A DNA stretch of 64,000 bases, taken from positions 1,984,001 through 2,048,000 of the forward strand of contig CP145409.1 of the NCBI GenBank assembly GCA_036867785.1. The letters are read 5' to 3'. This stretch comes from Plasmodiophora brassicae. Its lineage: Eukaryota. The notes under the pieces were generated by a model. That model searched no databases, was not told the DNA's origin, and was given only the letters and a program-made list of their open reading frames with translations. Shown here piece by piece: positions 1 to 60,915 of the stretch (position 1 is the stretch's first letter; each line of letters starts with the position of its first letter). A program made the translations under genes and the position numbers.

Positions 1-3000
1 AGCACGAGAATCGTTCATACTGAGCACGTACACAATACCCAGTTCAGAGCTAGCGGTGGGCATGACCTCGTCGTTGACGTCACCGATCACGGTAATGGAG
101 TCTTGTGCCAGCACCCGCATGAACTCGTAGGAGCCGCGATAATTCTCCAGGCTCCAGTTGTACACGGCAAGGTCGGCGGCGAGTGTCGGCACAGTGACGG
201 GAACCGTGCGAAGTTCGAAGAACCACTTGCTGCGGTCCACGAGATGGTCATCGCTGAGAAACGGACGACACACCTTCATCATTGAGAGCACTATCTGCGC
301 TTCGTCCGGGAACCGCAACGTCCGAACGTTCGCATCGATCGTTTGGTTAAACAGCATCTCCAATAGTTCCACCAACCCAAGAACAGGGTCATACCCATCA
401 ACAGCGTCCCGTTCGAGAATGGCCTGCACAGCACACGAGTTGACGAAACGCCTGAAACTGTTGCTTCCGAGTTTGGATGTGCAGCTGAGAAGTTCGTTGA
501 AAGCGGAAAGCGATATTACAGCCGGCGAACTCGACTTCACCGGAGACGCCTTCAACTGACTGTCGAGATCGTCGATAGCTTGCCGCAACATCAATGTTCC
601 CAGACGACAGCAGTCTTCAACGAAAGTAAGTCTTTCCTCGGAAGAACGTAGGGCCAAGAAGCCCTTAGAGATCGAGGTGATTGCTCCGCGAAGAACATAG
701 GAGATGAAGGAAGGATTCGCACGAAGAATCGAACGAGCTGCTTCGTCAGGCGCGTTCACGAAAGACGCTCCGGCAGCTTCATCAAGCTACACGTTCAAAA
801 GTTAGAAACACACGAAACGATGCGACTATACTCCAGCTGACCTCAACCGAGCCATGTAGTGCCGCAAGCACACGCCCGATGAGGACAAAGTTCATGACCT
901 GACACGCAGGCTGGGCACCCTTGCGGGAGTCGCCAGAGACGGGTTTGCGCTTCTTGGCAGCCCCTTCGGATTTCTCACGAGTCGAAGCCGTTGGGAATAG
1001 GGCGTCCAGTAGCTTGAAGAGTGCTAACACCTATGGGGACGCGTTGGTCACGTTGAAGCGCGGGTAACAGTATCAACAGAGGGGACCTTCGTAAGAGCGG
1101 AAGTGGTGACTCCCTCCGTCATGATTAGAAATCGTACACCGGAATCAATGATATCGACCCACATGCGTGATGACAAACGAAGATTGGGGTCGACTGCAAC
1201 ACTCTGCGACTGCGAAGCTAAGGCAGCAGACCGACCCGTGTCAAAGGCAAAGTCCTCTAGGCGACAGGTTCCCAACTTTCCAAGGACATCCCCAATGAAA
1301 ACAGAGTACTCGACATACAGACGCCGGTCCGCATCAGACTCCTGGCACGCTTCCACGCACTGGCACAAGCATCCAAACAAAGAAGATATCGGCTCGACGA
1401 CAGAACCAGACTGTATGCATCGGTCCAGCTGAAACGGCACGCTGGCGTCCTGTTCGGGATCAATGAAACGAGATAGATGAGATTTCAGGAGGTCAACGAT
1501 GTGCATCCGCAAGGTGGACGACGCCATACGAAATGTCGAATATAGCCTAACGTGGCAGTGTGAACGGACGGCAGCTTGCTGTGTGAGCGCACGCTGTAAC
1601 AATCCATGCACTTCAAGAAAGAATTTGGCGTCGTTCGAAGAGCACGAAGAAGACGAGCTTTGGCTGTTCTGGAAGATATCCGTCGCTTCAGATGACATTC
1701 CGCAGAGCAGGCTCAGGAAGCCATCGACTGTGAAAGGTCGTCAGGTTAGCGCGTGGCACTGCGATTAGACGGGGACGTACTTGCAGACACACGACGTTCC
1801 AGACTTCGCGAAAATATGCTCTTCCGGAGACACACCACCAGGGCACTCGACAAATCATCGCGAAGGCGAAGCAGCGGCATCAGGCAGGTAATGATCTCAC
1901 GAGACCGGCGGAAGTCCATCATCGTCTGATATTGAGTTCACCACTGCACATCGTTCAATCATGGCGCACACGTACGATGTACTCAAAGCTGTTCCGGATT
2001 TGAGCGGTGAAATCCAGAAACGTGTGCGGGTTCCCGGACACAAGCCGTGACAGAAGTATTCCAGGAGGCGTCACTTGACCGCCCTCACCATACTCGTCGG
2101 AGACTGACCGTTTACCACTTCTTTCATCGTCCTCGCCAGCACCGCTGACGAGTAGTGCCAGCAACTTTCCGACAATCGGCCCGCGTGCGAACGGGTGATC
2201 ATTGAACACTGCGAGAAGCGTCCGAATCATTAGTCGCATAACGGAGCAGTACGGGTTCGTCATTGACTCTGGGGTCACGCAGTCTGATTCCCATAGCAAG
2301 GCGCCTGCATGAACAATCCCGCCAATCTGTTTAGACGGTTTGTGAGCCAGGATCGCGAACGAGAGATCCACGAGGCTGGACACGATGAGATCGCATCCCG
2401 CCTTGGCACTATCCAGAACCTGGCTGAACACAGCATCAACGTCGACGAACAAGCCAATTCCAGGTGGCACATTGCTCTCCTTGGAATAGATCATCGATCG
2501 CGCATGCTTCAAGAAGCCCGACGAGTCAACTGAGTGCTGCCAGCGGAACGCAGCGAAAATGTAATCGGTCAAGAACGTCGTCACGGAAGACATGAATTTG
2601 TGAATGGCCGTTATCGACAGCAGCAACGAAAGCGCGACAGGCCCCAGAGGTACGTGACGATTCTTGACGACGTTCAGCAACGCAGTTCCCAAATCATGGT
2701 CCTGCCGCACAGCATAACTGAACGCATGTATGCAGGTCGCAAGAACCTGCACGACCGGGCGCGACGGCTGCGTCGTTGCGAGGTCTTGGCAAGAGGAGAC
2801 GAACGCGTGCATAACAAGTGGACGTGATTCAGAGTCGCCGAACAGGAGGAGGTTGTGATAAATCACGGGGATGTCGGCGACATCTTCGTACCGAGCCACG
2901 CTCTCGGTAAACTTGCGAATAGCAGCAGCGACATGCGACGTGGACAGTTCGATCTCACGCAAGACCTCCAGTGCCTTGATCAGGAACCGGGTCGTTGGCC

Positions 3001-3449
3001 ATGGGGCACGAAGGACCCGTTCGACGATGAACGATCGGTACTGCGTCGAATCCATACTGCCTTCTGTTGCCGCGCTAAGGTCTTCGTCGGCCAGGCTCGA
3101 AAGCATTGCGGTGATGACCGGCAGCATGTCGGTGGCACTTGGTCGAGACATCTCGATGGCCTCCACAGCGGATTCCACTGCGTCCAATCGGGAGCGCACA
3201 CTGACAATGGATACACATCCTGTTACAGCACGAATCACGTTCTAAACATCGTCGCATCAGAAGAACATCATGGCCGAGGACCGACAGCACAACCTGGGCG
3301 CCCGCCTGCGACAGTTCCTCGGCGTCGCGCGCGGCCAGCCACGCGACAACCTTCGCGAACGCAGCGCCGTTATCGGATCGCGATAACGCGTCAAGCTGCT
3401 GCGCGGCGCTGGCTTCGGACACAGCGGCGGCGTCGATGACCCGCTCCAT
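1..3449 (-). CDS. FANCI: Fanconi anemia group I protein homologue (multi-exon; 3' end runs off the window start)
   Basis: Long alpha-solenoid ORFs (3075-3566 part, 1955-3238, 1048-1698, 782-1030) with FANCI-like motifs FSYAVRQDHDLGTALL, LTQQAAVR..LY, EPISSL, LEDFAFD. ATG at 3449. Confidence 0.7.
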
Positions 3450-6736: not shown

Positions 6737-8676
6737 ATGCGCCTGTACGTCCTGCCCGACAAGTTCGTCGTCGAGCGCGACCTCGATGATCCGCTGGGCA
6801 GCAACCTGCACATCCAGCGGGGCGACGGCGCCGCCATCGCCGTGGCCGACCGCCTCGACCCGTCGCTCGTGCTGCAGGCCGTGTCGGAGCACACGTTCGG
6901 CGTCGTCGGCGTCCTCAAGCTGCTTCGCGGACGATACCTGCTGCATGTCTCGGAAGCCAGGGTCGTCGCGTCGATGAACACCAAGCCAATCTACGCGGTC
7001 GTCCGTGCGAAAATCATTCCATTCTCTTCCAGACGTGTGGAAGATGACCTGCCAGACCGTACGCCATCACGTCCCCACAGTGGTGTCGCAAGCTGACCGT
7101 TTCCAGACGTGGTCCGGAACGAGGAGAAGGTATATCTGGAGATGGTTGAGCAAGTCCTGTCGTCATCCGCCTTCCATTTCTCATACGGGTACGACCTGAC
7201 GCACACAGTGCAACGAATTGCAGGTCGTACCCATCGTGCAATGCGGGTCCCTCCGTTCTAACCTTTCAAACAGCCTTGAATGATTCTTCGATGAACCTCG
7301 TGGGTCGCGCTGATGAGCGGTTCTTCTGGAACCGTTATCTCCTGTCCGATTACCTGTCCGTCAACGTCGACCCATGCTTCATTGTCCTTGCGAGCGGGTT
7401 CTTCACATCGGTCCGCGTCGACGCCCTCGATATCGTGTACGCGCTGTTCTCTCGCCGCTCGTGCCGCAACGCCGGGACCCGGTTCACGCGTCGTGGCGTT
7501 GACCACAGTGCCGCTGCTGTGAACTTTGCTGAACAGGAGCAGATTATCGTGAAGGGCGCCACTGTCTCGTCGTTCGTTCAGACTCGTGGGTCGGTTCCGT
7601 TGCTGTGGTCGCAGATGGCCTGCCTTCGATGGGCGCCACCCGTTAAAATCGACCACAGCGCCGAGTCGTTGGCGTTATGCAAGCGGAACCTGGACGAACA
7701 CGCCACCTTGTACGGCCGGAGCATCCTTGTCAACCTGGTGAACCAGAAGGGACGCGAACTGACAATCAAGAACGCGTTCGAGACGGGCGTGCCGCCGTAC
7801 TCGCCATCGAGCTCGCATCCGTACTCGTTGATATCGTTCGATTTCCACAACGAGTGCAAACGTATGCGTTATGAGAACATCGGCAAGCTGGTCGCCGAGG
7901 TCCGATCCGAGTTCGACCCAATGGGGTTCTTCCTGGGAACGTACGCGCCGAAGGACAATTCGTGGAAAGTGCAGAAGGAACAGCACGGGTGCTTCCGAAC
8001 GAACTGCATGGATTGCCTCGACCGAACGAATGTCGTCCAGTCAGTCTTCGCTGAGCGCGTCCTCGAAACGCAGCTGCGAGCGGTTGGTGCCTCGACTGTC
8101 GGCCTCGACGGGCCCCTGTCGCACACGTTCAAGGTCGTCTGGGCAGACAATGCCGACGCGCTGTCCCTGCAGTATTCTGGCACCGGCGCGCTGAAGACCG
8201 ACTTCACGCGCACAGGCAAACGATCGGTTGCCGGCGCCCTGAACGACGCGCGCAACTCGATCACACGGTACTACCTGAACAACTTCTGCGATGGTTTCCG
8301 TCAAGACTCGATCGACCTGTTCCTCGGGAACTATCGCCCAGACCTGAAGTCGGTGTCGAACCACGAGGAACTCCCGTATGCGGACCCGTCCCCTAACGGC
8401 GGGCTACGCTCCGTATGGCAGTACGTCGTGTCCCGTTCGATGATGATCCTGATGGCCGCTCTTCTGGCCACCTTCGGCCTGCCATCGGAATCCCGGCCGA
8501 CGCTCTCCAGCCTGATCGCTGTAACCCTCTTCATCGGCCCCGCGGTCACCCTCTTCGCCGCTCATCACGACGGCCGCCGGTTCGTCGACAAGCCCAGGTT
8601 CCTGCCACTTGCGGGCGCCGTGTTCCCCGGTGCGGATGACGGCGCCGTCGACGCCAACAAGGACAAACGGCAGTAG
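6737..8676 (+). CDS. SAC1: SAC1-type phosphoinositide phosphatase
   Basis: RFFWN, SRRSCRNAGTRFTRRG, QTRGSVP, the catalytic RTNCMDCLDRTNVVQ (CX5R) motif, GTGALKTDFTRTG and two C-terminal TM helices. Confidence 0.93.
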
Positions 8677-19809: not shown

Positions 19810-21162
19810 ATGCCTGGCGTAGACGACCAGCGTCGGCGTCGCCGGCGGCGCGGGCATTCCTCGCCGACGGCGGTGACGCCGCCCTACGGCACGTCGCGTC
19901 GGCGGCTGTCCGATCCGGACCCGTTCCACGATCCGCAATACCATCATCGATGGGACCGTGACGGGTGGCGACCAGACCCGCCGCGACGCCCGTCCCGAAT
20001 CAACTACGACGGCGGTCGCCGATGGCAGGACGCCCGCGACCGCCCCCTGTTCGAGCCTGCCCTGCGACCACCGAGGCCCTATGCGGCGTTCCTTCGGGGA
20101 CCTCCGACCCCGCTCGACTGGCACGAGGACGAAACGCACCGGCACTCGGTCAAGCAGCGCATCTGGAACGACGACGACGACAATGACCGTTATTACGATG
20201 ACCGCCACTTCGCGGAAAGCGACCCGTCGCCGACGAGAACGTCCCGCACCGGCAGGTCCTTCGATCACGACGACGACGACGACCCGTCGTCGATCTTCTC
20301 GGGTGCCGTCACGCGATCGTCCAGCGACTCGCACGACTTTGATTCGGGGAACTACGACGACGACGACGGTGACAGCATCGGGGCGCAGCCGGTGCCCGCG
20401 GTGCGGCCACGTGCACGCGCACCGGCCAAGCAGCAGCAGCAGCAGCAGCAGCAGCGGCGAGTGCCGGCACCGCCAGCCAGGACGCCCGAGCGGCCAGCGT
20501 CGCCTGCACCGGGGCCGCCGCCGCAATCGCCCTCGTCGTCGTTCAGCATCGCGATGGAGTCGGAGGTGAACCCGTTCCCGGTCGCGACGGGCGCCGACGA
20601 CAACGAGGTCGCCCTGGACGCGCTGCTCGGCATCGCCGACATGCTCGAGAAGCTGTGGATGGGCGCCAGCGTCCTGTTCGCCGTCGTCGCCCTCGTCATC
20701 GTCGTCGTCATGTTCGCGATGGCGTCGTCGGCCTCGTACTACTGGTCGCTCGGGTTCGCCGCCTTCGTCTACGTGGCCGTCGGTGTCCTGATCGTCCGCG
20801 AGATCCGCCTGATCCAGCGCCACCTGCAGCTGTTGCACGACACGCACCACACGACCGACCACCAGCGTATCCGGACGGTCGACCTGCAGGCGATCGTCCG
20901 GTCGAACGCGGTGGCCGGCGCCCGCCTGCTGAAGGGCGCCATCCAGAAGGGGGCGGCCGGCCTGGCCGTCTACGGCCTGCTCCTGCTGATCATCGCGTTC
21001 GTCCCCGCCGTCCAGGTCGGCATCCTCGTCGTCGCGCTGTTCACGTTCGCCGTCGCCCTCGGCTTCTTCGTCGTTAGCATACGGCAGTCCAGGGCGCTCG
21101 TCGACAGGACCAACCGGCTCCTGGGCGACGACGACACTGTAGACGAGCATATCGCGCCATAG
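19810..21162 (+). CDS. Hypothetical membrane protein: disordered Pro/Asp/Gln-rich N-terminus plus 4 TM helices
   Basis: Intronless 450-aa ORF with a (CAG)n poly-Q tract and two hydrophobic hairpins in the C-terminal part. Confidence 0.7.
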   Translation: MPGVDDQRRRRRRRGHSSPTAVTPPYGTSRRRLSDPDPFHDPQYHHRWDRDGWRPDPPRRPSRINYDGGRRWQDARDRPLFEPALRPPRPYAAFLRGPPTPLDWHEDETHRHSVKQRIWNDDDDNDRYYDDRHFAESDPSPTRTSRTGRSFDHDDDDDPSSIFSGAVTRSSSDSHDFDSGNYDDDDGDSIGAQPVPAVRPRARAPAKQQQQQQQQRRVPAPPARTPERPASPAPGPPPQSPSSSFSIAMESEVNPFPVATGADDNEVALDALLGIADMLEKLWMGASVLFAVVALVIVVVMFAMASSASYYWSLGFAAFVYVAVGVLIVREIRLIQRHLQLLHDTHHTTDHQRIRTVDLQAIVRSNAVAGARLLKGAIQKGAAGLAVYGLLLLIIAFVPAVQVGILVVALFTFAVALGFFVVSIRQSRALVDRTNRLLGDDDTVDEHIAP

Positions 21163-21190: not shown

Positions 21191-21868
21191 ATGTGGTGGA
21201 CGGCCGTCATTGTGGTCGCGGCCGTCGTCGTCGGCGCCGACGCGCGCGCCCCGTTCGGCGACGTCCTCGGCGTGTCGCACGGTGGCGTCCAGGTGCGTTC
21301 GTGCCACGCCGAGTCGCCCGAGGCGTACCGCGAGGCGCTGCGGGCCGGCGACCCCAAGTACCACGCCTTCCTGGGCGGCGTCTTCACCGGGTTCCAGTGG
21401 CAGTGTGTGGAGCTGGCCAGGCGGTACCTGGTCGTGAACGCTGGCGTCGCGTTCGACGACGTCGTCAACGCCTACCAGATCTGGGACCTGGACGGCGTGC
21501 GGCGCGTTGCTGATGGCGAGCGGGTCGCCTGGCGCAGGTTCGCGAACGGATCACGGGTCCGGCCTGAAATCGGGTCGCTGCTCATCTGGAGCCCGGCCGG
21601 GTTCTACGAGCCCACCGGCCATGTCGCCGTCGTCGTCGCCGTCGGCGACGCGTTCGTGGACATCGTGGAGCAGAACGTGGACGACACGGTCTGGGAGACA
21701 GGACAGACGTATTCGCGGAGGCTGAAGGCCAGATCCGACGATGGCTCGTTCACCGTTGTCGACGACTATGACGGCGACGTTATCGGATGGATCATCATGT
21801 CGATCGTGACGACGGAGCGGGCGCCGGCGTACGACGACGAATCGGACATGGATCGCGACGAGTTGTAG
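21191..21868 (+). CDS. CHAP-domain cysteine amidase (glutathionylspermidine/trypanothione amidase-like) with signal peptide and RDEL terminus
   Basis: FGDVLG..GGV, WQCVELARRYL (catalytic Cys), GSLLIW, TGHVAVV (His), EQNV (Glu). Hydrophobic N-terminus; ends MDRDEL*; intronless. Confidence 0.88.
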   Translation: MWWTAVIVVAAVVVGADARAPFGDVLGVSHGGVQVRSCHAESPEAYREALRAGDPKYHAFLGGVFTGFQWQCVELARRYLVVNAGVAFDDVVNAYQIWDLDGVRRVADGERVAWRRFANGSRVRPEIGSLLIWSPAGFYEPTGHVAVVVAVGDAFVDIVEQNVDDTVWETGQTYSRRLKARSDDGSFTVVDDYDGDVIGWIIMSIVTTERAPAYDDESDMDRDEL

Positions 21869-22138
21869 CATAAAGGCACAGCAGTCCAAGGTGCACAGGT
21901 CCGCCTTTGCGGGCGATACACAACCGAGCGCCCTTGCCAGACAGGTCAGCGCCGGCGATACGACCAGCGCTGGCCGTGGATCCATCGACAGGATCCGTTG
22001 GGCAACGGTGGGGGAATCATTGGCCATCAGTCAGGTGGACGGTACAAGTAGTGGCACCCTTAGATGCATTCGTGGACGGCATATGCGTGCTGGGGACGTT
22101 GCCCCAATGCCCGGGTGGCCCTGCTCAACAGCACGAGT

Positions 22139-24200: not shown

Positions 24201-25569
24201 ATGGGCGTTTCCCTGCGTATCACCATCATGGCGCCGTCCCTGATCCTGATCGCTCTCCTCGGGAGATATCGCGTCGACGCTGTCAGGCTCCGCTCCAGCG
24301 ACCTTGTTGACCATATCGTCAACGATTCGGCCGCCATCCAGCACTCCGCAGTGCTGGGCGACCTCCTCGCTTGTCTCAACGACGTGGATCCGATTCCTTT
24401 GTCAGCCATCGCCAACGCCGAGCTGGATACGATCGTGACGTTCATCAACGCAACGGCATCGCACGAGGTATTCCAGGTTCGTTCAATGCGAGTAGACGAT
24501 AACCAATGATTAACAGATCGAGGCTGCTGGCCAATTCGCGCACGACGTCTTCGAGGCAACGGGCCTGCAGGCCCAGTGCCGGCTGATGGTCGCCGCCAAT
24601 TACCTGGACATGCGCGGCCTGATGGACGCGATTACGTCTACGAAGCGTTCCTGGGGCGACATCACTGCCATGCGCGACACGCTACAGACAGACCCCTTCT
24701 GGTACGTTGTGAGCAACGCGCCTGGCATTGTCCGCCTTGGTCAGGTCGCGGACACCACAGCCAGGAAGTCGATCGTACGCCAGATTCAAGGTCTGCTCAT
24801 CGCTGGCGGCAACGCCACCGTGCTTAATGGCGTGCTCTGGCACCGCCTTGAGACCTTGCTGTTGTGGGCGACACGCAACAACGAGGAACGGATCGTCGAG
24901 TTTCTCGTGGATGCTCCCGGGATCGACGTCAACGTGCGTGACTATTTGCAGAGCACGCCTCTGCACAGAGCAGCGCCTGCCGGGTATCTCGGCATCGTCA
25001 TATTGCTGCTGCGCTTCCCCGGTGTCGATGCCAACCTGCGGGACGGCGCCCACATGACGCCATTGCACTGGGCGGTGATCCATCGTCGTCGCGATGTTGT
25101 CGCATTGCTGGCCCATGCGCCCGGGACCGACGTGAACGCCTACAACGACGACCTAATGACGCCCCTGCATTACGCCGTGCTTGCCGGGTATGACGACATC
25201 GTTGAATTGCTGCTGGGGGCACCCGGGATCGACGTCAATGCACGTGACGATATGCAGACGACCGTGTTGCACGTTCTTGCTGTATCCGGTGGGTACGCAC
25301 AGATCGCTGAGTTGCTATTACGCGCCCCGGGGATAGACGTCAACGCGCGCAACAGCCAGCGAAAGACGCCGCTCCACGTCGCCGCATCGACGGGACATCT
25401 GGCCGTGGTCGAATCCCTGCTGAGCGCCCCCGGAATCGATCTGCTCGCCCTGGACAACCTCAATCGGACGGCGTTCGGCATTGCGACGGCGCACGCCCAC
25501 CACGAGGTCGCCCTGCTGTTGCACGCTCACGTCGACGTCGGCGGCCCTAGTAGTGGCGTGCAGCAGTAA
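24201..25569 (+). CDS. Secreted SKP1/BTB-like plus ankyrin-repeat protein (candidate effector)
   Basis: Signal peptide, then VRLRSSD..H, PIPLSAIANAELDTIVTFI and LMVAANYLDMRGL (SKP1-like), then about 7 ankyrin repeats TPLH.A...G....V.LLL.APGIDVN. One intron at ~24468-24517. Confidence 0.85.
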
Positions 25570-33403: not shown

Positions 33404-34843
33404 ATGCATCGTCGTGTTGCTGTGAAGGCGGCGTTCTGCACGGGTGCTGCTGCTGCGCAACGACGTGCACGTGCATCGCCTCCCGTGATGGCATCCGTGC
33501 CGATCGGGTTGCACCATCGGCAGTGGCACTGGTTCGAGTCGTTCCTGAAGCGCCCGTCGATGGGGATGGCCATACGCGCACTTCGTCACGATGACGACGC
33601 GCACCGCGGCTGGGCTGTGTTCCAGCACGTCCTTCGACTGGGATGCCCCGTCGATGTCCGTCTCTTCATGACCATGATGATGTTCTGCAGACGGCACCTG
33701 CCGTCGAAAGCGCCCCAGGTCCTCCGGACGGCCGTGTCCGTCGGGGTCCCCGTCTCCAACGACGACGGTCTCTTCTGCACGTTCCTGAGCGCATGTCAAC
33801 GTGCGGGCCGCCATCTTCTCGACGAGTCCATCGACGTGTACCGGGAACACGGCCCGAGGTCACACGACGTCCTGTTCACGTTGGCGCATTCCTGCCGGGT
33901 CGCACAACGTCCCGGGGATGCGTTGTTCCTCGTCCAGGACGCCATCGAGAACGCAGTGGAATTCAGTGAACGTCTCCTGTCGATCTTCGCGGCGTGCTGC
34001 GCCGAATCCACCAAGTCGGCCAATGTCGCCGAACAGCTCCTGGATGTGATTCGGTCCAGGCGCACGGGCGCACCCACCAGGAACCATCGTGTGTTCGCCA
34101 ATCTCGTTAAGGTGCTGCTGGCCGAGTCCAGGTACAGTCGGGCGATCTCGACGCTCGACCTGATGGACGGCATCGGCCTACCGCCGACAGAAGGCCTGTT
34201 CAACCACCTGCTCTGCGTCCTGGCCAACGCTGACCACATCCTGCAAGCGTTCACCGTGTTCGACGTGATGGTTGCCAGAGACGTTCTCGTCGACAGCACA
34301 GCGCTTAGCCAGCTGATCGTCAAGTCTACCCGTCTAGCGTCCCTTCGTGTATTGGACAAATACGTTTCGAAGCACCCGGACGTCCTCGACGGGTATGTTG
34401 CCTGCTCCTTCATCTCCGCCTACGGTCGATTCGGCAACATCGCCCTTGCCGAACGCGTCTTCCACCGCATCGACTCCCCGGACGCACCGACGTACAACGC
34501 CATGGTCGTCGCGTACTGCCGCGCCGGCATGCTGCCGCATGCAATCGACACGTTCGAACGGTACCACGTTGCCGACCGACACCCGTCGGCGTGCAACAGT
34601 GCCCTGTCGGCGTTCGCCAGAGCGGATTCCATTCCGCGCGCTCTCTTCGTCCTCCATGCCATGCAGGAACGCAACGTCCCGGTGACGGCGGCGGCCCTGT
34701 GCTCGCTCGTCGCCGCATGTGCTCGATGCTCGGATCGTAATACGTTGAACATGCTCCTGGACGACGCACGCCTGCGTGACGACCCAGCTCTAGTGTCGGC
34801 GTTCGACTCGGCCAGTGCCTGCCTGTCTGTCGCAGGTGTCTAA
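33404..34843 (+). CDS. Pentatricopeptide-repeat (PPR) protein
   Basis: Intronless 479-aa ORF with SFISAYGRFGNIALAERVF, TYNAMVVAYCRAG..AI..F and FNHLLCVLA..AF.VFD.M. The basic N-terminus resembles a mitochondrial presequence. Confidence 0.85.
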   Translation: MHRRVAVKAAFCTGAAAAQRRARASPPVMASVPIGLHHRQWHWFESFLKRPSMGMAIRALRHDDDAHRGWAVFQHVLRLGCPVDVRLFMTMMMFCRRHLPSKAPQVLRTAVSVGVPVSNDDGLFCTFLSACQRAGRHLLDESIDVYREHGPRSHDVLFTLAHSCRVAQRPGDALFLVQDAIENAVEFSERLLSIFAACCAESTKSANVAEQLLDVIRSRRTGAPTRNHRVFANLVKVLLAESRYSRAISTLDLMDGIGLPPTEGLFNHLLCVLANADHILQAFTVFDVMVARDVLVDSTALSQLIVKSTRLASLRVLDKYVSKHPDVLDGYVACSFISAYGRFGNIALAERVFHRIDSPDAPTYNAMVVAYCRAGMLPHAIDTFERYHVADRHPSACNSALSAFARADSIPRALFVLHAMQERNVPVTAAALCSLVAACARCSDRNTLNMLLDDARLRDDPALVSAFDSASACLSVAGV

Positions 34844-37690: not shown

Positions 37691-38178
37691 CGTGGCGATC
37701 GACGTCGCTCATCATGGATCGACGCGCCGAACTGAACCGACCAGGCAACGTTCGTCGCCTGGCCGGCACCGGCAAGACACGCTCGGGGTCCGGCCGACAC
37801 GGGACCCAGGAATTTGGCCAGCGCGCGCCGACGTCCTATACGATTAATCCCCGCGATCTACAGGATCTGCCACGCAGGATGACCGTTCACCAGGTTGCGA
37901 AGTCCGCGGCAGGGGTCTATTATTTTTGCGGTTGTCCGTCCGGGGTTCCACGACTGCCGATCCGGTTGACTTCATTATCGAACGCGAACGACCAAGGTGT
38001 ACGTCGGTTGCGGTTTTTGGCGATTATCCGATCCGCCCCGGTTGTGGGACAGACTTCAGCGGCCCCGTCACAGGGCAGACTAATTTTCGTCGAGAGAAAC
38101 GTGGCACACACCGGAGGCGCGTCTCTGGAGACCAGCCCCGTTGGCGTTCACGCGCCGGAAGCCCGTTTCACCTACTCT

Positions 38179-38953
38179 ATGGCGCAGGCGGGCGTCGCAA
38201 CGGGCCCGATCGTTGTCGTCGAGGGTGACGAGTTCGCATGCAGCGAGTGCGGCAAGGAGTTCGCCACGAAGGCCCAGGTGAAGCGGCACGCGCGCACGCA
38301 CTCGCAGGTCCGCCCGTTCTCGTGCGACGTCTGCCTCAAGACGTTTATGACGAAATGCAACCTGACGAAGCACACGCGTATCCATACCGGCGAACGGTTC
38401 GTGTACTCGGGACCGATGACGCGCAAATGGACATTGACAGCGGCTGTCAGGCCCTACGAGTGCACGATCTGTCGGAAAGCGTTCGGGCGGCGGGCCATCC
38501 TGACGAAGCATATGCGGGTGCATACCGGCGAGCGCCTGTACCATTGCACGGTCTGCTCCAGGGATTTCGCCACCGCGTTCTCACTGTCGAATCACGAACG
38601 ACTCCACACGGGCGATAGACCATACGAGTGCCCGATCTGCCGCAAGACGTTCGCCATCAAGGTCGGTCGGTCCGTCTGGTTGCGCGCCCGGTTTCGCCGA
38701 CTAATGCTGCTGCTGCTGCTCCAGGGGAATTTAACATCGCACCTAACTGTCCAGTAAGTCCATCCCGATGCGCGCGTGCCAGTGTATACCCGTGCGCTGA
38801 TGGCGGCTCGTTCGCAGCACGAAGGACGCCAAGTACAAATGCGACGTCTGCGAGAAGCTGTTTCGGCACAGGTCGTCGTTGAACATGCACGTCGTCAAAT
38901 TCCACAGCCCGCGAACCGGGACGGCTGCGGCCCCGTCGCAGTCGACCCAGTAA
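38179..38953 (+). CDS. C2H2 zinc-finger protein, 6 fingers (paralogue D, 3 introns)
   Basis: Same three intron positions as paralogue C. Ends RHRSSLNMHVVKFHS. Confidence 0.88.
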
Positions 38954-47582: not shown

Positions 47583-50060
47583 ATGGCGACCGACGCGGCC
47601 GCCGCCGCCGAGCACCGCGCCTCCGTCCTGTCCATCCCCGAGGTGCAGCTCATTGGCACCATCCTCGACGACACCGATGTGCCGCCGCCGCCGCCGAACC
47701 CATCCGTCATCGCCATGCCGACCCCGAAACCGTTCGCGTCGTCGCGATTCGCAAGGTCGACATCGGCGCCGCCGCAGCTGTCCATCGTCGAACAGCCGAC
47801 ATATGTGAACGGCGAAGCGATATCGCCCGAGGACCCGCGCCTGTCCCCAGCGTACTACGCGTACTACTACTCGCAACGGCCTATCGATCCGCGCCTCCCG
47901 CCGCCCTTGGTGGACTATTCCACATGGGGCGCTGGGCAGCAGCCACCATCGCAGCCGCCGCACCATGATCCGTTCAGTCACATGCGGCTACCTCAAGCGG
48001 ACAAGGCGGGCAGCGGCGCCCGCGTGCCGCCGCGGGTGCCGTCGCTCGGCAAGTCGGTGCGCGACAACGTCTGGGCCATCGAGAAGTCGTTCGGGTCGGC
48101 AGTCCTACCGAATGACCTGCCGAGGTCGGCGTCGCCGCTGCTGCACACGACCTGGCATGCTGCTGGGGCGGCCAAGCCCGACTATCCTGTAAGCCTGTGC
48201 TCGTTCCTCGGACGCGTGGGCTGATGGGCACCTGCTGTAGAAGGCGAACGCGGCACAGCCCGACGCCGACCTGCATCTCAAGTTTGCCAACTTTCATGTG
48301 GGCAGAGTCGCGTCCAGAGCGCGTGCTCAACTCCAGGGGCGCTGATTGCGTTGTTCAGGTATCGCAGCCGCATGGCCGTCCGTACCAGGCGCAGCCGCAG
48401 GCGTACGATGGCGTCCCGTTCGCCCCAATGCCGGCGGCGGATTCATCCGGCGGGTATTACGGAGGGTCCACGCGTGGCGACTCGAGACATGCAATGGCGA
48501 ACGGTGGAGGTCCACCCGTCTATCCAAATCCGTACCATCAACGTGCGCAGCAGCAGCACCAGCCGTACTGGGACAACGCGAACAACCCGCTGTACTACGC
48601 TGAGTACCCAGCGGTAATGCGCCACGTGCCCGTTCGCTTTGTGCAAGGTTGCCCCCCGCTGACGGTGCCCGTCCTGTCGCAGTTCCCCAGTACCGTTGGC
48701 CTGCATCAACGGAGCGCGTCCGCATTGCCAACGCCATCCAACCATCGGCCCATTCCCTATGGCAAGCAGCGCCGCCAGCAGTCGGCGACGGACAGGGCCT
48801 CTGTCCTCAATGGCAATGGGGCTGCCATGCAGAAGGCTGCAATTGTACACGAACTTAAAGTTAACAAGCACCATCATCGGGTATGCGCGTTCGATCCCGT
48901 TTTCGCAAGCGCTCGTCGCTGACCATCGACGCCACTTCCCAGGTGCGCCTATCCGATGTGATTGCCTCTGGGATCGTTTCCGTACTGGCGACGGAGCAGA
49001 ACGGGTCTCGGTTCATCCAGCTGCATCTCGAGAATGCCACCGAGGAGCAGCTCGACGAAATGTTCGCTCAGCTGCAGGCGGACACCATCCGATTATCCGT
49101 CGACGTCTTCGCCAATTACGTCGTACAGAAGTTCTTCGAATTCGGACGCCCGCGACACCGTCAAGGGTTTGCCGAGCGGATACTCGGCTCGGTGCTGCCA
49201 CTGTCGCTACAAATGTACGGCTGCCGCGTCATTCAGAAGGCGCTCGAGGTACAGCGCCGTTTGCGTCGCACGGTCGACCCGCTGGCTGTTGAATCCGATC
49301 TACAGGTGGTGGATCCTGGCATGCAAGCTGCGTTTATTGCCGAGCTGAAAGGCAACGTCGAACGTTGCGTCAAGGACCAGAACGGCAATCACGTCATCCA
49401 GAAGTGCATTGAAATTCTGCCATCGCAGTCAACGGCCTTCATCATCGATTCGTTCATTGGGAACGTGTACGCGTTCTCGACGCATGCCTACGGCTGTCGC
49501 GTTATGCAACGCCTCCTTGAGCACTGCACCGACGAGGTCAGGCGGGAACAGCTGCTGCGGGAAGTCATGGATCGCGTCGTGGACTTGATCATGGACCAGT
49601 TCGGCAACTACGTCGTGCAGAACATCTTGGAGCGAGGCCCCCCGCAATACCGCTCGGTGATCATCGCGCATGTCAAGGGTCGCGTTTGCGAGTTCAGCAG
49701 GCACAAGTTCGCGTCCAACGTCGTGGAGAAGTGCTTCGCTCTCGGGGGCGAACACGACAAGGAGGAACTCGTCCAGGAAGTGTGCAGCTGTGCGGGCACG
49801 TCGGATAATTGCCCGCTTGTGCTCATGGTCAAGGACCCGTTTGGTAATTACGTCATCCAGAAGGTTGCGTCGTTCCGTTTCGAATGCGCCCTGTTGTCCC
49901 CGTTCTGACCCGTGTTCCGCAGATACTCGCGGTGGTATCGCCCGAGCAGCGGGATCGACTCGTTGGCGCGATCTGCAGCAAGATCCCCAACCTGCGGAAG
50001 ATCGCCTTCGGCAAGCATATAATTGCGACTGTTGCGCGCCTGACCGGTCAGGCAATCTGA
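47583..50060 (+). CDS. Pumilio/PUF RNA-binding protein with 8 canonical repeats
   Basis: Recognition motifs SRFIQ, NYVVQ, CRVIQ, NHVIQ, CRVMQ, NYVVQ, SNVVE, NYVIQ. N-terminal DPRLSPAYYAYYYS...DPRLPPPL; ends FGKHII. Confidence 0.92.
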
Positions 50061-58551: not shown

Positions 58552-60915
58552 TTAGAGGCCGGCCTGCGAGTGCCTCCGCAGGAAGCTACGCACGAATTCG
58601 TACTGGGTGACGTCGTCATGCCGGTCCAGGTGCTCCTGCTGCTGCTGATCCTCGACGAGCTCGCGCAGCTGTCGCCGGAAGATGATGTGCGTCAGGTCCT
58701 TCCTGGTGATCATCCCGGCGACGTGGTTTGTCGGCGTGACGACCGGGATGTGCCGCAGGCCCATGGTGCGGTACAGTCGGAAGACGGTGCTGACCGGGGA
58801 GATCTGCTGGCAGACGTACGGGGCGGGGTCCATGTACGGCCTGAGGTCCATCTCCAGGTCCCGTTCCGAATCGCTAATCGTGACGTCCTCGATGGACGGG
58901 TACCTCGGGTACGACTGCTCCATGTCCTGGTCCCTGAGCAAGGGCGCGTCCCCGTACTGACGATGCTGCAGGAGGACGGTCAGGTGTTTGCGGGGGATCA
59001 GGCCTCGGAAGGCGCCGTCGCCATCCGGACCGACGACCGGGAACCCGTTATGCGAACACGAGCGCAGGACGTCGACGACGCGCCCGACGGTCTCGACCTC
59101 GCGGAACGAGACCGGGTCCGGCGACATGATGTCGGCCGCCAGCAGGTACTGCGCCACCGGCGGCGGGTCAAAGTCCAGGAACTGCCACCCGTTCAGGTGA
59201 ATCTGGATGTCGTACAGCCCCTCGTTGAAGTAGCCGCCGACCCACCGCGCCGTCATCAGCGTCGCCATGATCGGCAACCCGTACTGGATGTCGCCGGTCG
59301 CCTCGATCAGGATCACGGTCAGCGAGATTGTCATGCGCGCCATGCCGCCCAGGACGGCGGCGGCCCCGATCAGCGAGTACGTGCCCGGGTCGACGGTCGG
59401 CAGCGCCGCGTTCTCGTGCACGACCTGGCCGACGAGCCGGCCGAAACAGGCGCCGGCCAGCAGGCACGGGATGAACAACCCGGACGGGATCGCCATCCCG
59501 TAGCACCAGCAGGCGGCGACGAACACGACGAGGAAGACGACGACGAGGTCGGCGGTGTCGAACGTGACGGACGTGTGGAACAGGAGCTTGACGGCGCTGT
59601 CGAATGGCACAAGCAGGATGCTGGCCCGCGGCGAGAACTGCCCGTGCGCGCAGTAGAACTGCACCAGCTGCCGCGCGTACTGCTCGTGCTCGCGGCCAAT
59701 GCCGACGCAGGCCGGGCGCACCGCCAGGCACGCCACGAAGGCGACGAGGGCGAACACGGCGGCCGTCGCCGTGCACTCGGCGATGCGGCGGGCGGGCGAC
59801 CGGACGTGCGCCTGGCGCCAGACGGTCAGCCGCCGGTTGCATTCGTTGAAGGCGGCGCCGGCCAGGCCGCCGACGGCGCCCATGCCGATGAAGAGCGGCA
59901 GTTCGTAGGCGGAGTACGAGAACACGTTCTGGCCGTTGGAGGTGAAGTCGCCGAACGTGAACATGGACGAGTCGGAGAGCTTGCCCCAGTGGCGGTCGTC
60001 GCTGACGGCGGACGTGAACAGCGCCAGGAAGAAGTAGGACATCATGGAGCAGAAGAACGTTCGCCAGGTCAGCTTCTGGTTCCAGAACGACGACCCTTCC
60101 TCGAGAGCGAACAGGACGCCGCCGATCGGCGCGCCGAACGCGTTCGCGACGCCAGCGGCCGCCCCGGCCGACACGAACTCGCGCTTCTCCTTATCGTTCC
60201 GGAACTCGCCATTGTACTTCGTGCACGACGTATCGATACCCGCCACCGCGGACCTGCCCTGCGAGACGGCGGCGCCGCACACGGCGCCACAGTGAATCAT
60301 CGGGCCCTCGATGCCCAGGGGCAGGCCGGCCGCCACAGACAGGGACACGCCGATGGCTTTCACGAGCAGCGTCTTCACGCGGACGACACGCGGGACCTTC
60401 AGCCCGTTCAGGATGCACTTCACTTGCGGGATACCGCTCCCGGCGGCCATCGGTTCGACGTAGGCGACCAGGGCGCTGGCGACGCCGACAAAGGCGGCCG
60501 CCATCGTGCACTGGACAGCGATCGGCGCGACGACAAACCCTTGTCGGATGAGGCGGTCCACAGCGGCGAACCTGTAGCGTTGCAGGGAATGGGAGAGCGC
60601 CCAGACGCACAGGGCGACCAACGCCATCGTGAAGGAGACCAGGGAGATGAGGAGCCAGCGGAGCAGGGCGCGATGCTTGAAGAACGTTGGCGTCCGGGAT
60701 CGGATCTCCAGGCGTCGCACCAGCGAATGCGATTCGAAGCAGTCGAACGTGTCAAAGTCGGGCTCCGGCGATGATGACGGCGACGGCGACGGCGACCATC
60801 GAGCGTTATCCGCGGCGGCATCGCCATCGATCAGCAGACGCTCCTCCATGGAGAGAGGACGAGCCGCTGGGTGGCCGCGCCGTCCAGTTTTGCCACGTTT
60901 GTACCGCTGGGACAC
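58552..60915 (-). CDS. CLC chloride/proton exchanger (ClC-6/7-like) with 2 CBS domains
   Basis: Intronless 787 aa; GSGIP, GIEGP, FGAPIGGVLFALEEG, GLFIP, RMTISL, NEGLYD, HNGFPV, MGLRHIPVV. Confidence 0.95.
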   Translation of the reverse strand: MSQRYKRGKTGRRGHPAARPLSMEERLLIDGDAAADNARWSPSPSPSSSPEPDFDTFDCFESHSLVRRLEIRSRTPTFFKHRALLRWLLISLVSFTMALVALCVWALSHSLQRYRFAAVDRLIRQGFVVAPIAVQCTMAAAFVGVASALVAYVEPMAAGSGIPQVKCILNGLKVPRVVRVKTLLVKAIGVSLSVAAGLPLGIEGPMIHCGAVCGAAVSQGRSAVAGIDTSCTKYNGEFRNDKEKREFVSAGAAAGVANAFGAPIGGVLFALEEGSSFWNQKLTWRTFFCSMMSYFFLALFTSAVSDDRHWGKLSDSSMFTFGDFTSNGQNVFSYSAYELPLFIGMGAVGGLAGAAFNECNRRLTVWRQAHVRSPARRIAECTATAAVFALVAFVACLAVRPACVGIGREHEQYARQLVQFYCAHGQFSPRASILLVPFDSAVKLLFHTSVTFDTADLVVVFLVVFVAACWCYGMAIPSGLFIPCLLAGACFGRLVGQVVHENAALPTVDPGTYSLIGAAAVLGGMARMTISLTVILIEATGDIQYGLPIMATLMTARWVGGYFNEGLYDIQIHLNGWQFLDFDPPPVAQYLLAADIMSPDPVSFREVETVGRVVDVLRSCSHNGFPVVGPDGDGAFRGLIPRKHLTVLLQHRQYGDAPLLRDQDMEQSYPRYPSIEDVTISDSERDLEMDLRPYMDPAPYVCQQISPVSTVFRLYRTMGLRHIPVVTPTNHVAGMITRKDLTHIIFRRQLRELVEDQQQQEHLDRHDDVTQYEFVRSFLRRHSQAGL

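What the first reader, a model, noticed from the sequence alone, without database searches (positions are those of the whole stretch)
21191..21868. Stand-alone Gsp-amidase-type CHAP enzyme with signal peptide and RDEL ER-retention tail
Seen: an intronless ORF with intact Cys (WQCVELARR), His (TGHVAV) and Glu (EQN) motifs, an N-terminal signal peptide and a C-terminal ...MDRDEL. Known: these motifs follow the amidase domain of bacterial glutathionylspermidine synthetase/amidase and trypanothione synthetase, where it is cytosolic and fused to an ATP-grasp synthetase. Inference: here the amidase alone appears retargeted to the ER lumen. That suggests an undescribed luminal glutathione-amide or peptide hydrolase, possibly acquired horizontally.
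Basis: partly seen in the sequence, partly recalled or inferred. Interest (0 to 1): 0.7.

Follow-up and report, generated by a model that had tools for sequence, protein, structure and literature searches.

The report
ER-targeted stand-alone Gsp-type amidase
A protist gene encodes a small, apparently active cysteine amidase of the glutathionylspermidine-amidase type with an export signal and an RDEL tail, so it probably works inside the endoplasmic reticulum; exported relatives are common in a few protist groups and an inactive ER version is already described in Leishmania, so this is an interesting variant, not a new kind.

Summary
Window 21191-21868 (+) is an uninterrupted 225-codon ORF. It matches the amidase domain of E. 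coli glutathionylspermidine synthetase/amidase by sequence (E 4e-33) and by predicted fold (TM 0.94). It keeps Cys72, His144, Glu160 and Asn162. It has an 18-residue hydrophobic N-terminus placed exactly in front of the domain. It ends in a disordered acidic tail with RDEL.

- Stand-alone Gsp-type amidases with signal peptides or membrane anchors are not unique. They occur in saprolegnian oomycetes, chytrids, Plasmodiophora and many unnamed sequences. The Saprolegnia set is already in print as a secreted CHAP family.
- Recent bacterial transfer is not supported. The protein falls outside the clade that holds all named bacterial enzymes.

What remains particular is the RDEL ending, found in 1 of 198 family members examined, combined with an intact active site.

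My best reading is a soluble, KDEL-receptor-retrieved ER-lumen amidase acting on glutathione-amide-type substrates. ER residence and substrate are inferred, not shown. Earlier notes of this scan name the genome Plasmodiophora brassicae. The scan had not noted this protein before.

Verdict: new variant of a known kind, moderate interest.

The parts
21191..21868 (+). Complete single-exon coding sequence, 225 codons plus TAG stop
   Evidence: The ORF is listed and the DNA is shown. An in-frame stop lies at 21140 and no other usable Met exists. Contigs of 4 of 4 laid runs cover it without joints or indels.
21191..21244 (+). Residues 1-18, MWWTAVIVVAAVVVGADA: signal-peptide-like hydrophobic N-terminus. 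Cleavage after ADA or ARA is inferred.
   Evidence: Hydropathy is 2.27-2.75. The segment lies outside the GspA alignment, which starts at residue 19. Model pLDDT is 59-65. No SignalP was run.
21245..21805 (+). Residues 19-205: Gsp-amidase-type CHAP domain
   Evidence: 3a2z E 4.1e-33 over residues 19-204. Pfam CHAP. AF2 model with mean pLDDT 87.9. Foldseek 3a2y E 8e-22, TMt 0.94, rmsd 1.5 A.
21404..21406 (+). Cys72, catalytic nucleophile, equivalent to E. coli Cys59
   Evidence: It aligns with the position that is Ala in the C59A structure 3a2y. It is invariant in 22 of 22 homologues and in 72/72, 9/9 and 20/20 of the three groups. The role of Cys59 is taken from PMC6272389 passages.
21620..21622 (+). 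His144, catalytic histidine
   Evidence: Invariant in 22 of 22 and in all groups. It corresponds to His-130 of LmTSA (PMC2427367 passages).
21668..21676 (+). Glu160-Gln161-Asn162: third triad residue and the oxyanion-hole Asn
   Evidence: E160, Q161 and N162 are invariant in 22 of 22. They correspond to Asp-146 and Asn-148 of LmTSA.
21806..21853 (+). Residues 206-221, VTTERAPAYDDESDMD: acidic, predicted disordered linker
   Evidence: pLDDT falls from 71 to 57 to 47 over the last 25 residues. This stretch has no counterpart in the homologues.
21854..21865 (+). Residues 222-225, RDEL: KDEL-receptor retrieval-type C-terminus, followed by TAG at 21866-21868
   Evidence: Sequence. It is the only [DE]EL ending among 198 family proteins. 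No difference is listed across codons 185-225 in the 4 laid runs. RDEL binds the vertebrate KDEL receptor and retains cargo (PMC8248988 passages).

Best explanation
The gene encodes a soluble, catalytically competent cysteine amidase of the glutathionylspermidine-amidase branch of the CHAP family that resides in the ER lumen.

Proposed sequence of events:
1. The 18-residue hydrophobic N-terminus directs co-translational entry into the ER and is cut off (inferred).
2. The roughly 205-residue mature protein folds like E. coli Gsp amidase (shown by prediction).
3. Its disordered acidic tail presents RDEL to the KDEL receptor, which returns escaped molecules from the Golgi (inferred from the motif).
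4. Catalysis uses the Cys72 thiolate, His144 and Glu160, with Asn162 at the oxyanion hole (residues shown, activity inferred).

The likeliest substrates are amides of the glycine carboxylate of glutathione. These would be glutathionylspermidine-like conjugates or proteins carrying them as mixed disulfides. The enzyme would release the amine and leave glutathione (inferred from family and from conservation).

The gene arose inside a eukaryotic GspSA family that has repeatedly shed the synthetase domain and gained secretory signals. It did not arise by a recent bacterial transfer.
For: Family and fold:
- E 4.1e-33 to E. coli Gsp amidase over the whole domain.
- AF2 model with mean pLDDT 87.9.
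- The model matches 3a2y at TMt 0.94 and rmsd 1.5 A. Peptidoglycan CHAP lysins reach only TM about 0.33-0.36 and E 8e-5 or worse.

Active site and core:
- C72, H144, E160 and N162 are invariant in 22 of 22 homologues.
- The window keeps 46 of 58 columns that are at least 95% conserved in 72 bacterial fused enzymes.
- None of the 7 amino-acid differences between strains falls on the 43 invariant or nearly invariant positions.

Secretory entry:
- The hydrophobic N-terminus sits exactly before the domain.
- Relatives show the same layout: 6 saprolegnian proteins with a signal peptide plus a C-terminal TM segment, P. brassicae P0010, and unnamed P0063, P0079, P0086 and P0088.

ER retention:
- RDEL sits on a disordered acidic tail.
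- The chance expectation is about 3.2e-5 per C-terminus.
- RDEL binds the KDEL receptor with Kd 2.71 uM and retains cargo in cells (PMC8248988 passages).
- Secretory cDNAs of P. brassicae with HDEL or KDEL ends are reported (PMC8282356 passages).
- No difference is listed in the tail codons in 4 of 4 laid runs.

Precedent: kinetoplastids have an ER-resident single-domain paralogue, ERGAD (PMC10903960 passages).

Origin:
- The same oomycete and chytrid lineages hold fused GspSA.
- The window lies outside the clade with all named bacteria (SH-aLRT 95-96; UFBoot 99 / SH-aLRT 67).
Against: - No localisation or activity data exist.
- SignalP could not be run. The N-terminus has no basic residue before the hydrophobic core.
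- No orthologue was found, so conservation of RDEL across species is untested. The best relative is 50% identical, and the metagenome scan gave only a 33% relative.
- None of the other 197 family members ends in [DE]EL. The P. brassicae paralogue ends in VAEL. ER residence is therefore not a family trait.
- Endings of this kind can arise by chance: 2 of 80 cytosolic bacterial GspSA ORFs end in DDEL or DEEL.
- The ER lumen is oxidising, and the Gsp amidase Cys is easily oxidised to sulfenic acid (PMC6272389 passages).
- Several residues fixed in all fused enzymes are changed in the window: K69 to Q, Y40 to A, M93 to N, F139 to Y. The substrate may therefore differ from Gsp.
- Whether this organism makes Gsp is known only from one sentence in a paper (PMC7052976). 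My search listed no protein named for Plasmodiophora among the best 120 of 181 synthetase hits.
- Whether the organism has a KDEL receptor that accepts RDEL could not be checked, because no genome is held.
Confidence: 0.55

Rival explanations
1. It is a secreted enzyme or effector, like its relatives. RDEL would then be leaky, not recognised by this organism's receptor, or used only after delivery, for example for retrograde traffic in host cells.
For: - All other signal-bearing relatives lack a retrieval signal. They look secreted or surface-anchored: 6 saprolegnian proteins with signal peptide plus TM, plus P0010, P0063, P0079, P0086 and P0088.
- Saprolegnia CHAP genes are predicted to be secreted (PMC3681718).
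- Amino-acid polymorphism between strains is fairly high: pN/pS 0.66 against 0.21 for the neighbouring gene, on 9 and 8 differences.
- Earlier notes of this scan call the organism an intracellular plant parasite.
Against: - A soluble protein with a C-terminal RDEL would be retrieved in the producer's own ER if the receptor is canonical.
- The protein is not among the effector candidates in the supplementary tables I could search. That screen excluded HDEL/KDEL proteins only.
- The SNP counts are too small to show selection.
Confidence: 0.22
2. It is a peptidoglycan or peptide hydrolase of the general CHAP type and has nothing to do with glutathione amides.
For: - Pfam assigns only the generic CHAP family.
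- Six residues fixed in fused GspSA (at least 70 of 72 bacterial, 9 of 9 eukaryotic fused) are relaxed in stand-alone forms.
- The substrate is untested.
Against: - Sequence and fold match Gsp amidase far better (E 8e-22, TMt 0.94) than lysin CHAP domains (E 8e-5 or worse, TM about 0.33-0.36).
- 46 of 58 GspSA-conserved columns are kept.
- No cell-wall-binding module is present.
- An ER-lumen location offers no peptidoglycan.
Confidence: 0.1
3. It is a recent horizontal acquisition from bacteria that happened to gain targeting signals.
For: - Identity to bacterial fused enzymes (37-48%) is nearly as high as to eukaryotic relatives (45-51%).
- The eukaryotic distribution is patchy.
- Jiang et al. 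list the Saprolegnia CHAP family as a possible transfer.
Against: - GC3 of 0.89 is like the neighbours, at 0.87 and 0.91.
- The protein lies outside the clade with all named bacteria.
- All 80 bacterial loci encode fused or truncated-fused forms, none stand-alone.
- Fused eukaryotic genes exist in the same lineages.
- An ancient transfer into eukaryotes is not excluded.
Confidence: 0.05
4. It is a cytosolic or otherwise non-secretory protein. The hydrophobic N-terminus and RDEL would then be coincidences or annotation artefacts.
For: - No signal-peptide predictor was run.
- 2 of 80 bacterial cytosolic enzymes end in DDEL or DEEL.
Against: - ATG 21191 is the only possible start.
- The hydrophobic stretch replaces the hydrophilic N-terminus seen in E. 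coli and in fused oomycete enzymes.
- Having both signals by chance is very unlikely.
Confidence: 0.05

Closest known systems
[quoted passage not shown]
   Same: - Same fold: TMt 0.94, rmsd 1.5 A, 35% identity.
- The alignment covers the whole domain at E 4e-33.
- Same Cys, His, Glu and Asn.
   Different: - The E. coli domain is cytosolic and fused to an ATP-grasp synthetase. It has no signal peptide and no retrieval signal.
- The window protein changes 12 of the 58 columns conserved in bacterial fused enzymes.
[quoted passage not shown]
   Same: Single Gsp-amidase-type domain, signal peptide, C-terminal KDEL-equivalent signal, and a paralogue of a two-domain cytosolic enzyme (passages).
   Different: - ERGAD consistently lacks the nucleophilic Cys and is judged inactive. 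The window protein keeps Cys72 and the rest of the triad.
- ERGAD is reported as a trypanothione-synthetase paralogue of Discoba. The window protein is closer to E. coli GspA (E 4e-33) than to Leishmania TryS (E 1.5e-23), so the resemblance is probably convergent.
- I could not fetch an ERGAD sequence, so kinship was not tested.
Stand-alone secretory Gsp-type amidases of Saprolegniales (for example SPRG_07914, H310_14411), listed as the secreted CHAP family of S. parasitica (PMC3681718)
   Same: They are the best sequence relatives, at 50-51% identity. They also have a signal peptide directly before the domain and an intact triad.
   Different: They end in a transmembrane segment and a short tail such as YDLVH or YDAVK. 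That makes them type I membrane proteins. None has xDEL.
Amidase domain of Leishmania trypanothione synthetase-amidase (PDB 2vob, 2vps)
   Same: Same fold (E 5e-16) and the same type of triad. An acidic C-terminal tail exists in both.
   Different: - In LmTSA the acidic C-terminus of the synthetase domain blocks the amidase site.
- Here the acidic tail belongs to the amidase itself, is predicted disordered, and ends in RDEL.
CHAP peptidoglycan hydrolases (LysK CHAPK 4csh, LysGH15 4olk, PlyPy 5udm)
   Same: Same Pfam family and the same papain-like Cys-His core.
   Different: The structural match is only distant (TM 0.33-0.36, identity 16-22%). The substrate class is different.

Membership tests
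CHAP domain (Pfam PF05257, MEROPS C51) | Profile match above Pfam's gathering score | tested here: met
   42.6 bits against a cut-off of 26, E 9e-11, residues 66-162.
CHAP domain (Pfam PF05257, MEROPS C51) | Conserved catalytic Cys and His | tested here: met
   C72 and H144 are invariant in 22 of 22 aligned homologues.
Gsp amidase subfamily (N-terminal domain of GspSA / TryS) | Full-length sequence and fold match to a solved Gsp amidase, clearly better than to other CHAP domains | tested here: met
   E 4.1e-33 over residues 19-204. Foldseek 3a2y E 8e-22 and TMt 0.94, against E 8e-5 or worse for lysins.
Gsp amidase subfamily (N-terminal domain of GspSA / TryS) | Cys-His-Glu/Asp triad plus the Asn at the oxyanion hole | tested here: met
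   C72, H144, E160 and N162 are present. Their roles are taken from PMC2427367 passages.
Gsp amidase subfamily (N-terminal domain of GspSA / TryS) | Fusion to a C-terminal ATP-grasp Gsp synthetase (PF03738) | tested here: not met
   The ORF stops after residue 225. Contigs of two runs end 25-27 nt after the stop, and no joint is seen. It is therefore not a bifunctional GspSA.
Gsp amidase subfamily (N-terminal domain of GspSA / TryS) | Hydrolysis of glutathionylspermidine | not testable with these tools
   This needs an enzyme assay. The papers listing the Gsp-contact residues were not held.
Soluble ER-resident protein retrieved by the KDEL receptor | Cleavable N-terminal signal peptide | tested here: inconclusive
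   A hydrophobic 16-residue stretch directly precedes the domain. No SignalP was run and no experiment exists.
Soluble ER-resident protein retrieved by the KDEL receptor | C-terminal [KRH]DEL on an accessible tail, with no transmembrane segment | tested here: met
   RDEL is followed by the stop. The tail has pLDDT below 60. The only other hydrophobic 15-mer is the buried strand 145-159.
Soluble ER-resident protein retrieved by the KDEL receptor | Signal conserved in orthologues, and a receptor that accepts it present in the organism | not tested
   No orthologue was found and no genome is held. I can only say that no difference is listed in the tail in 4 laid runs.
ERGAD (kinetoplastid ER-resident Gsp amidase domain protein) | Single amidase domain plus signal peptide plus KDEL-type signal | tested here: met
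   Architecture. Definition from PMC10903960 passages.
ERGAD (kinetoplastid ER-resident Gsp amidase domain protein) | Loss of the nucleophilic Cys (pseudo-enzyme), and descent from kinetoplastid trypanothione synthetase | tested here: not met
   Cys72 is present. The protein is closer to E. coli GspA than to LmTSA. It works like an active counterpart of ERGAD and is not a member of that lineage. Direct kinship was not tested.

The most novel reading that the evidence does not exclude
An enzymatically active glutathionyl-polyamine amidase lives in the ER lumen of a rhizarian parasite. It would have evolved independently of the dead ERGAD of kinetoplastids. That would imply that glutathionylspermidine-type conjugates, or proteins thiolated by them, occur in the secretory pathway of non-kinetoplastid eukaryotes and are trimmed there as part of luminal thiol-redox control.
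Probability: 0.25. Interest if true: 0.65.

Novelty: new variant of a known kind. Interest (0 to 1): 0.42.

Why it matters
Glutathionylspermidine chemistry is treated as a cytosolic speciality of enterobacteria and kinetoplastids. Here a distant eukaryote carries an apparently active amidase of that type with ER-retention signals. Kinetoplastids have independently placed a catalytically dead copy in the ER. Two unrelated lineages sending this domain to the ER suggests a luminal role that nobody has defined. The intact active site in this protein makes that role testable with an ordinary enzyme assay. The finding also draws attention to an uncharacterised family of secreted or membrane-anchored Gsp-type amidases in oomycete, chytrid and plasmodiophorid pathogens.

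Tried and rejected
- Own-genome search for a synthetase domain was not possible, because no genome is held.
- The single-protein scan of bacterial genomes found nothing. The alignment-based scan then gave 80 loci.
- Expression: no RNA holder is listed. All runs are only guessed to be RNA and are kept as contigs, so expression is not shown.
- The metagenome scan for orthologues gave one relative at 33% identity.
- The search with an oomycete synthetase domain listed no protein named for Plasmodiophora among the best 120 of 181 hits. This does not show absence.
- Papers with the Gsp-contact residues of E. coli GspA (Pai 2006, Pai 2011) are not held. Substrate-contact residues therefore could not be mapped.
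- The supplementary tables of PMC8282356 held no CHAP, amidase or RDEL entry.
- The protein Atlas gave only generic CHAP clusters.
- Earlier findings of this scan hold no look-alike and nothing nearby.
- Rejected: fusion with the upstream ORF. It is in a different frame, a stop lies at 21160-21162, and no joint is seen in any contig.
- Rejected: a downstream TM exon as in the oomycete relatives. Contigs of two runs end at 21893-21895 and no joints are seen.
- Considered: the acidic tail as an active-site plug, as in LmTSA. The model leaves the tail disordered, so this is unsupported but not excluded.
- The exact sister group could not be resolved. The window joins the oomycete stand-alone group at SH-aLRT 85-87 in one tree. 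It joins an unnamed 201-aa protein at 69/42 in the careful tree.

Full report
THE OBSERVATION

It has 225 codons, starts with ATG and ends MDRDEL-TAG. An in-frame stop lies upstream at 21140. The protein has Met only at positions 1, 203 and 220, so ATG 21191 is the only workable AUG start. GC3 is 0.89, like the neighbouring ORFs at 0.87 and 0.91.

The window is eukaryotic. Several Pfam-supported genes are present only as fragments of multi-exon genes: FANCI, SacI, protein kinase, PPR, PUF and a CLC channel. Earlier notes of this scan name the genome Plasmodiophora brassicae. I could not verify that, because no genome is held.

WHAT THE PROTEIN IS

- Pfam gives CHAP at 42.6 bits against a cut-off of 26.
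- Against solved structures, the best hits are the amidase domain of E. coli glutathionylspermidine synthetase/amidase (3a2z, E 4.1e-33, residues 19-204 on 9-192) and then Leishmania trypanothione synthetase (E 1.5e-23).
- An AlphaFold2 model built on 22 homologues has mean pLDDT 87.9. Confidence is low only for residues 1-20 and 205-225.
- The model matches E. coli Gsp amidase 3a2y at E 8e-22, TMt 0.94 and rmsd 1.5 A. CHAP lysins reach only E 8e-5 or worse and TM about 0.33-0.36.
- Cys72 aligns with the residue mutated in the C59A structure. C72, H144, E160 and N162 are invariant in 22 of 22 aligned homologues.
- In 58 columns that are at least 95% conserved in 72 bacterial fused enzymes, the window has the same residue in 46. 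Nine of those columns were fixed by the search pattern used to find the bacteria.
- Six positions fixed in fused enzymes from both bacteria (at least 70 of 72) and eukaryotes (9/9) are relaxed in stand-alone forms. These are Y40, K69, M93, Y95, F139 and G185, kept in only 3 to 11 of 20 stand-alone proteins. The window has changed four of them. They may be contacts with the synthetase domain or with the substrate. I could not tell which, because the structural papers were not held.

TARGETING SIGNALS

The first 18 residues, MWWTAVIVVAAVVVGADA, are hydrophobic and lie entirely before the start of homology. E. coli and the fused oomycete enzymes have hydrophilic N-termini there. No signal-peptide predictor was available.

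The last 20 residues are acidic, predicted disordered, and end in RDEL. With the local amino-acid make-up, a [KRH]DEL ending is expected at about 3.2e-5 per protein end. RDEL is a proven retrieval signal in vertebrates: Kd 2.71 uM for the KDEL receptor, and cargo is retained in cells (PMC8248988, passages). HDEL/KDEL-bearing secretory cDNAs are reported for P. brassicae (PMC8282356, passages).

TRANSCRIPT AND STRAIN EVIDENCE

No run is on record as RNA, so expression is not shown. Contigs of 4 of 4 laid runs cover the whole CDS without joints or indels.
- In two runs from different studies, the contigs run 21205-21895 and 21206-21893.
- A third run has one contig across 19713-22514.
This is at most a weak hint of a separate short mRNA with a 3' end about 26 nt after the stop. 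It argues against extra exons.

Three runs share 9 differences from the window in the CDS, and one run has a tenth. Together these change 7 amino acids, and the 9 shared differences give 6 non-synonymous against 3 synonymous changes, pN/pS 0.66. The upstream gene gives 0.21. The counts are too small for inference. None of the changed residues is among the 43 conserved positions. No difference is listed in codons 185-225.

RELATIVES

A word-based search found 41 proteins of similar length.
- Named stand-alone relatives at 45-51% identity come from Aphanomyces, Achlya, Thraustotheca, Saprolegnia, Plasmodiophora brassicae (P0010, 48%), Cladochytrium and Rhizoclosmatium.
- Six saprolegnian proteins combine a signal peptide with a C-terminal transmembrane segment and a short tail.
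- P0010 has a signal-like N-terminus and ends in VAEL.

The search for longer proteins showed that the same oomycetes and chytrids also carry fused amidase-synthetase genes of 620-710 aa. Some chytrid copies have N-terminal hydrophobic anchors.

An exhaustive profile-free search counted 894 representative clusters at E of 0.001 or better. Most of the best 150 are 150-350 aa. Over all 198 family proteins then in hand, 52 of the 162 that are 350 aa or less have a hydrophobic N-terminal segment. Only the window protein ends in [DE]EL.

ORIGIN

A pattern scan of bacterial genomes returned 80 loci at 37-48% identity. All are fused or truncated fused genes.

- In a 108-row tree of the amidase domain (every second complete bacterial locus, 6 long rows kept), all named bacteria fall in a clade with SH-aLRT 95-96 that excludes the window and every named eukaryote. 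The window groups with the oomycete stand-alone proteins at SH-aLRT 85-87.
- In a careful 78-row tree (six long or compositionally odd rows dropped, every third bacterial row kept), the split between all named bacteria and all named eukaryotes has UFBoot 99 / SH-aLRT 67. The window's sister is unresolved at 69/42.

Recent bacterial transfer is therefore not supported. An ancient transfer into eukaryotes, as suggested for Saprolegnia (PMC3681718, passages), is not excluded.

WHAT IS ALREADY IN PRINT

- Jiang et al. 2013 list a 7-gene secreted CHAP family in S. parasitica.
- Butenko et al. 2020 state that GspS/TryS homologues occur in P. brassicae, Stentor and oomycetes (PMC7052976, passages).
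- Most relevant, a 2024 study of Leishmania targeting motifs describes ERGAD. This is an ER-resident single-domain glutathionylspermidine amidase protein with a signal peptide and a KDEL-equivalent signal. It consistently lacks the nucleophilic Cys and is judged inactive (PMC10903960, passages).
- Searches for Plasmodiophora with "CHAP domain" and for "glutathionylspermidine amidase" with "oomycete" found no paper. Plasmodiophora with "glutathionylspermidine" found only Butenko et al. 2020, cited above, and an unrelated wheat metabolomics paper. I found no description of an active ER-targeted form.

VERDICT

The best reading is an ER-lumen, KDEL-receptor-retrieved, catalytically intact Gsp-type amidase (confidence about 0.55). 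The main rival is a secreted enzyme whose RDEL is not decisive (about 0.2).

It is not a bifunctional GspSA, because it has no synthetase domain. It is not a member of the kinetoplastid ERGAD lineage, because the Cys is present and it is closer to bacterial-type GspA. It works like an active counterpart of ERGAD.

Novelty: new variant of a known kind. Interest: moderate.

Noticed in passing
window 19810-21162 (+): The upstream 450-aa ORF is low-complexity, with a poly-Q run and several C-terminal hydrophobic segments. Its only Pfam match is a sub-threshold holin-X resemblance. It stops just 28 nt before the amidase ATG. Other strains carry an in-frame 6-nt insertion (ACGACG) after 20167.
   Followed up: partly
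P0048, P0050, P0053, P0060: Some fused amidase-synthetase proteins carry an N-terminal hydrophobic anchor. These are from the chytrids Nowakowskiella and Cladochytrium and from unnamed sources. So even the bifunctional enzyme is membrane-attached in some eukaryotes. Its topology is unknown.
   Followed up: no
one search hit list: Saprolegnian oomycetes hold many synthetase-only paralogues (PF03738 alone, about 420-530 aa) beside the fused and amidase-only genes. Both halves of GspSA have been split off and multiplied there.
   Followed up: no
window 21191-21868 versus runs X8, X13, X14: The laid runs differ from the window by about 1.4% in this gene, with 7 amino-acid changes (T4P, A40T, G63D, S134R, P141R, T170P, D184A). 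All fall at variable positions. pN/pS is 0.66 against 0.21 in the neighbouring gene, on small counts.
   Followed up: partly
alignment: Six residues fixed in all fused enzymes are relaxed in stand-alone forms (window positions 40, 69, 93, 95, 139, 185). They are candidates for synthetase-domain contacts or for a changed substrate pocket.
   Followed up: partly
L014 and L046: Two of 80 bacterial GspSA ORFs end in DDEL or DEEL. This is a reminder that acidic xxEL endings arise by chance in this family's cytosolic members.
   Followed up: no
window 1955-3151, 7291-8676, 24586-25569, 33404-34843, 37714-38757, 48883-49908, 58552-60849: Neighbouring ORFs with Pfam support: FANCI fragment, SacI-homology phosphatase fragment, ankyrin-repeat protein, PPR protein, C2H2 zinc-finger protein, Pumilio-repeat protein, and a CLC chloride channel with CBS domains.
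   Followed up: no
rank 2: An Atlas cluster of 190-aa CHAP proteins is reported as 45% Eukaryota, with Nucleocytoviricota as the commonest phylum. This hints that giant viruses carry stand-alone relatives.
   Followed up: no
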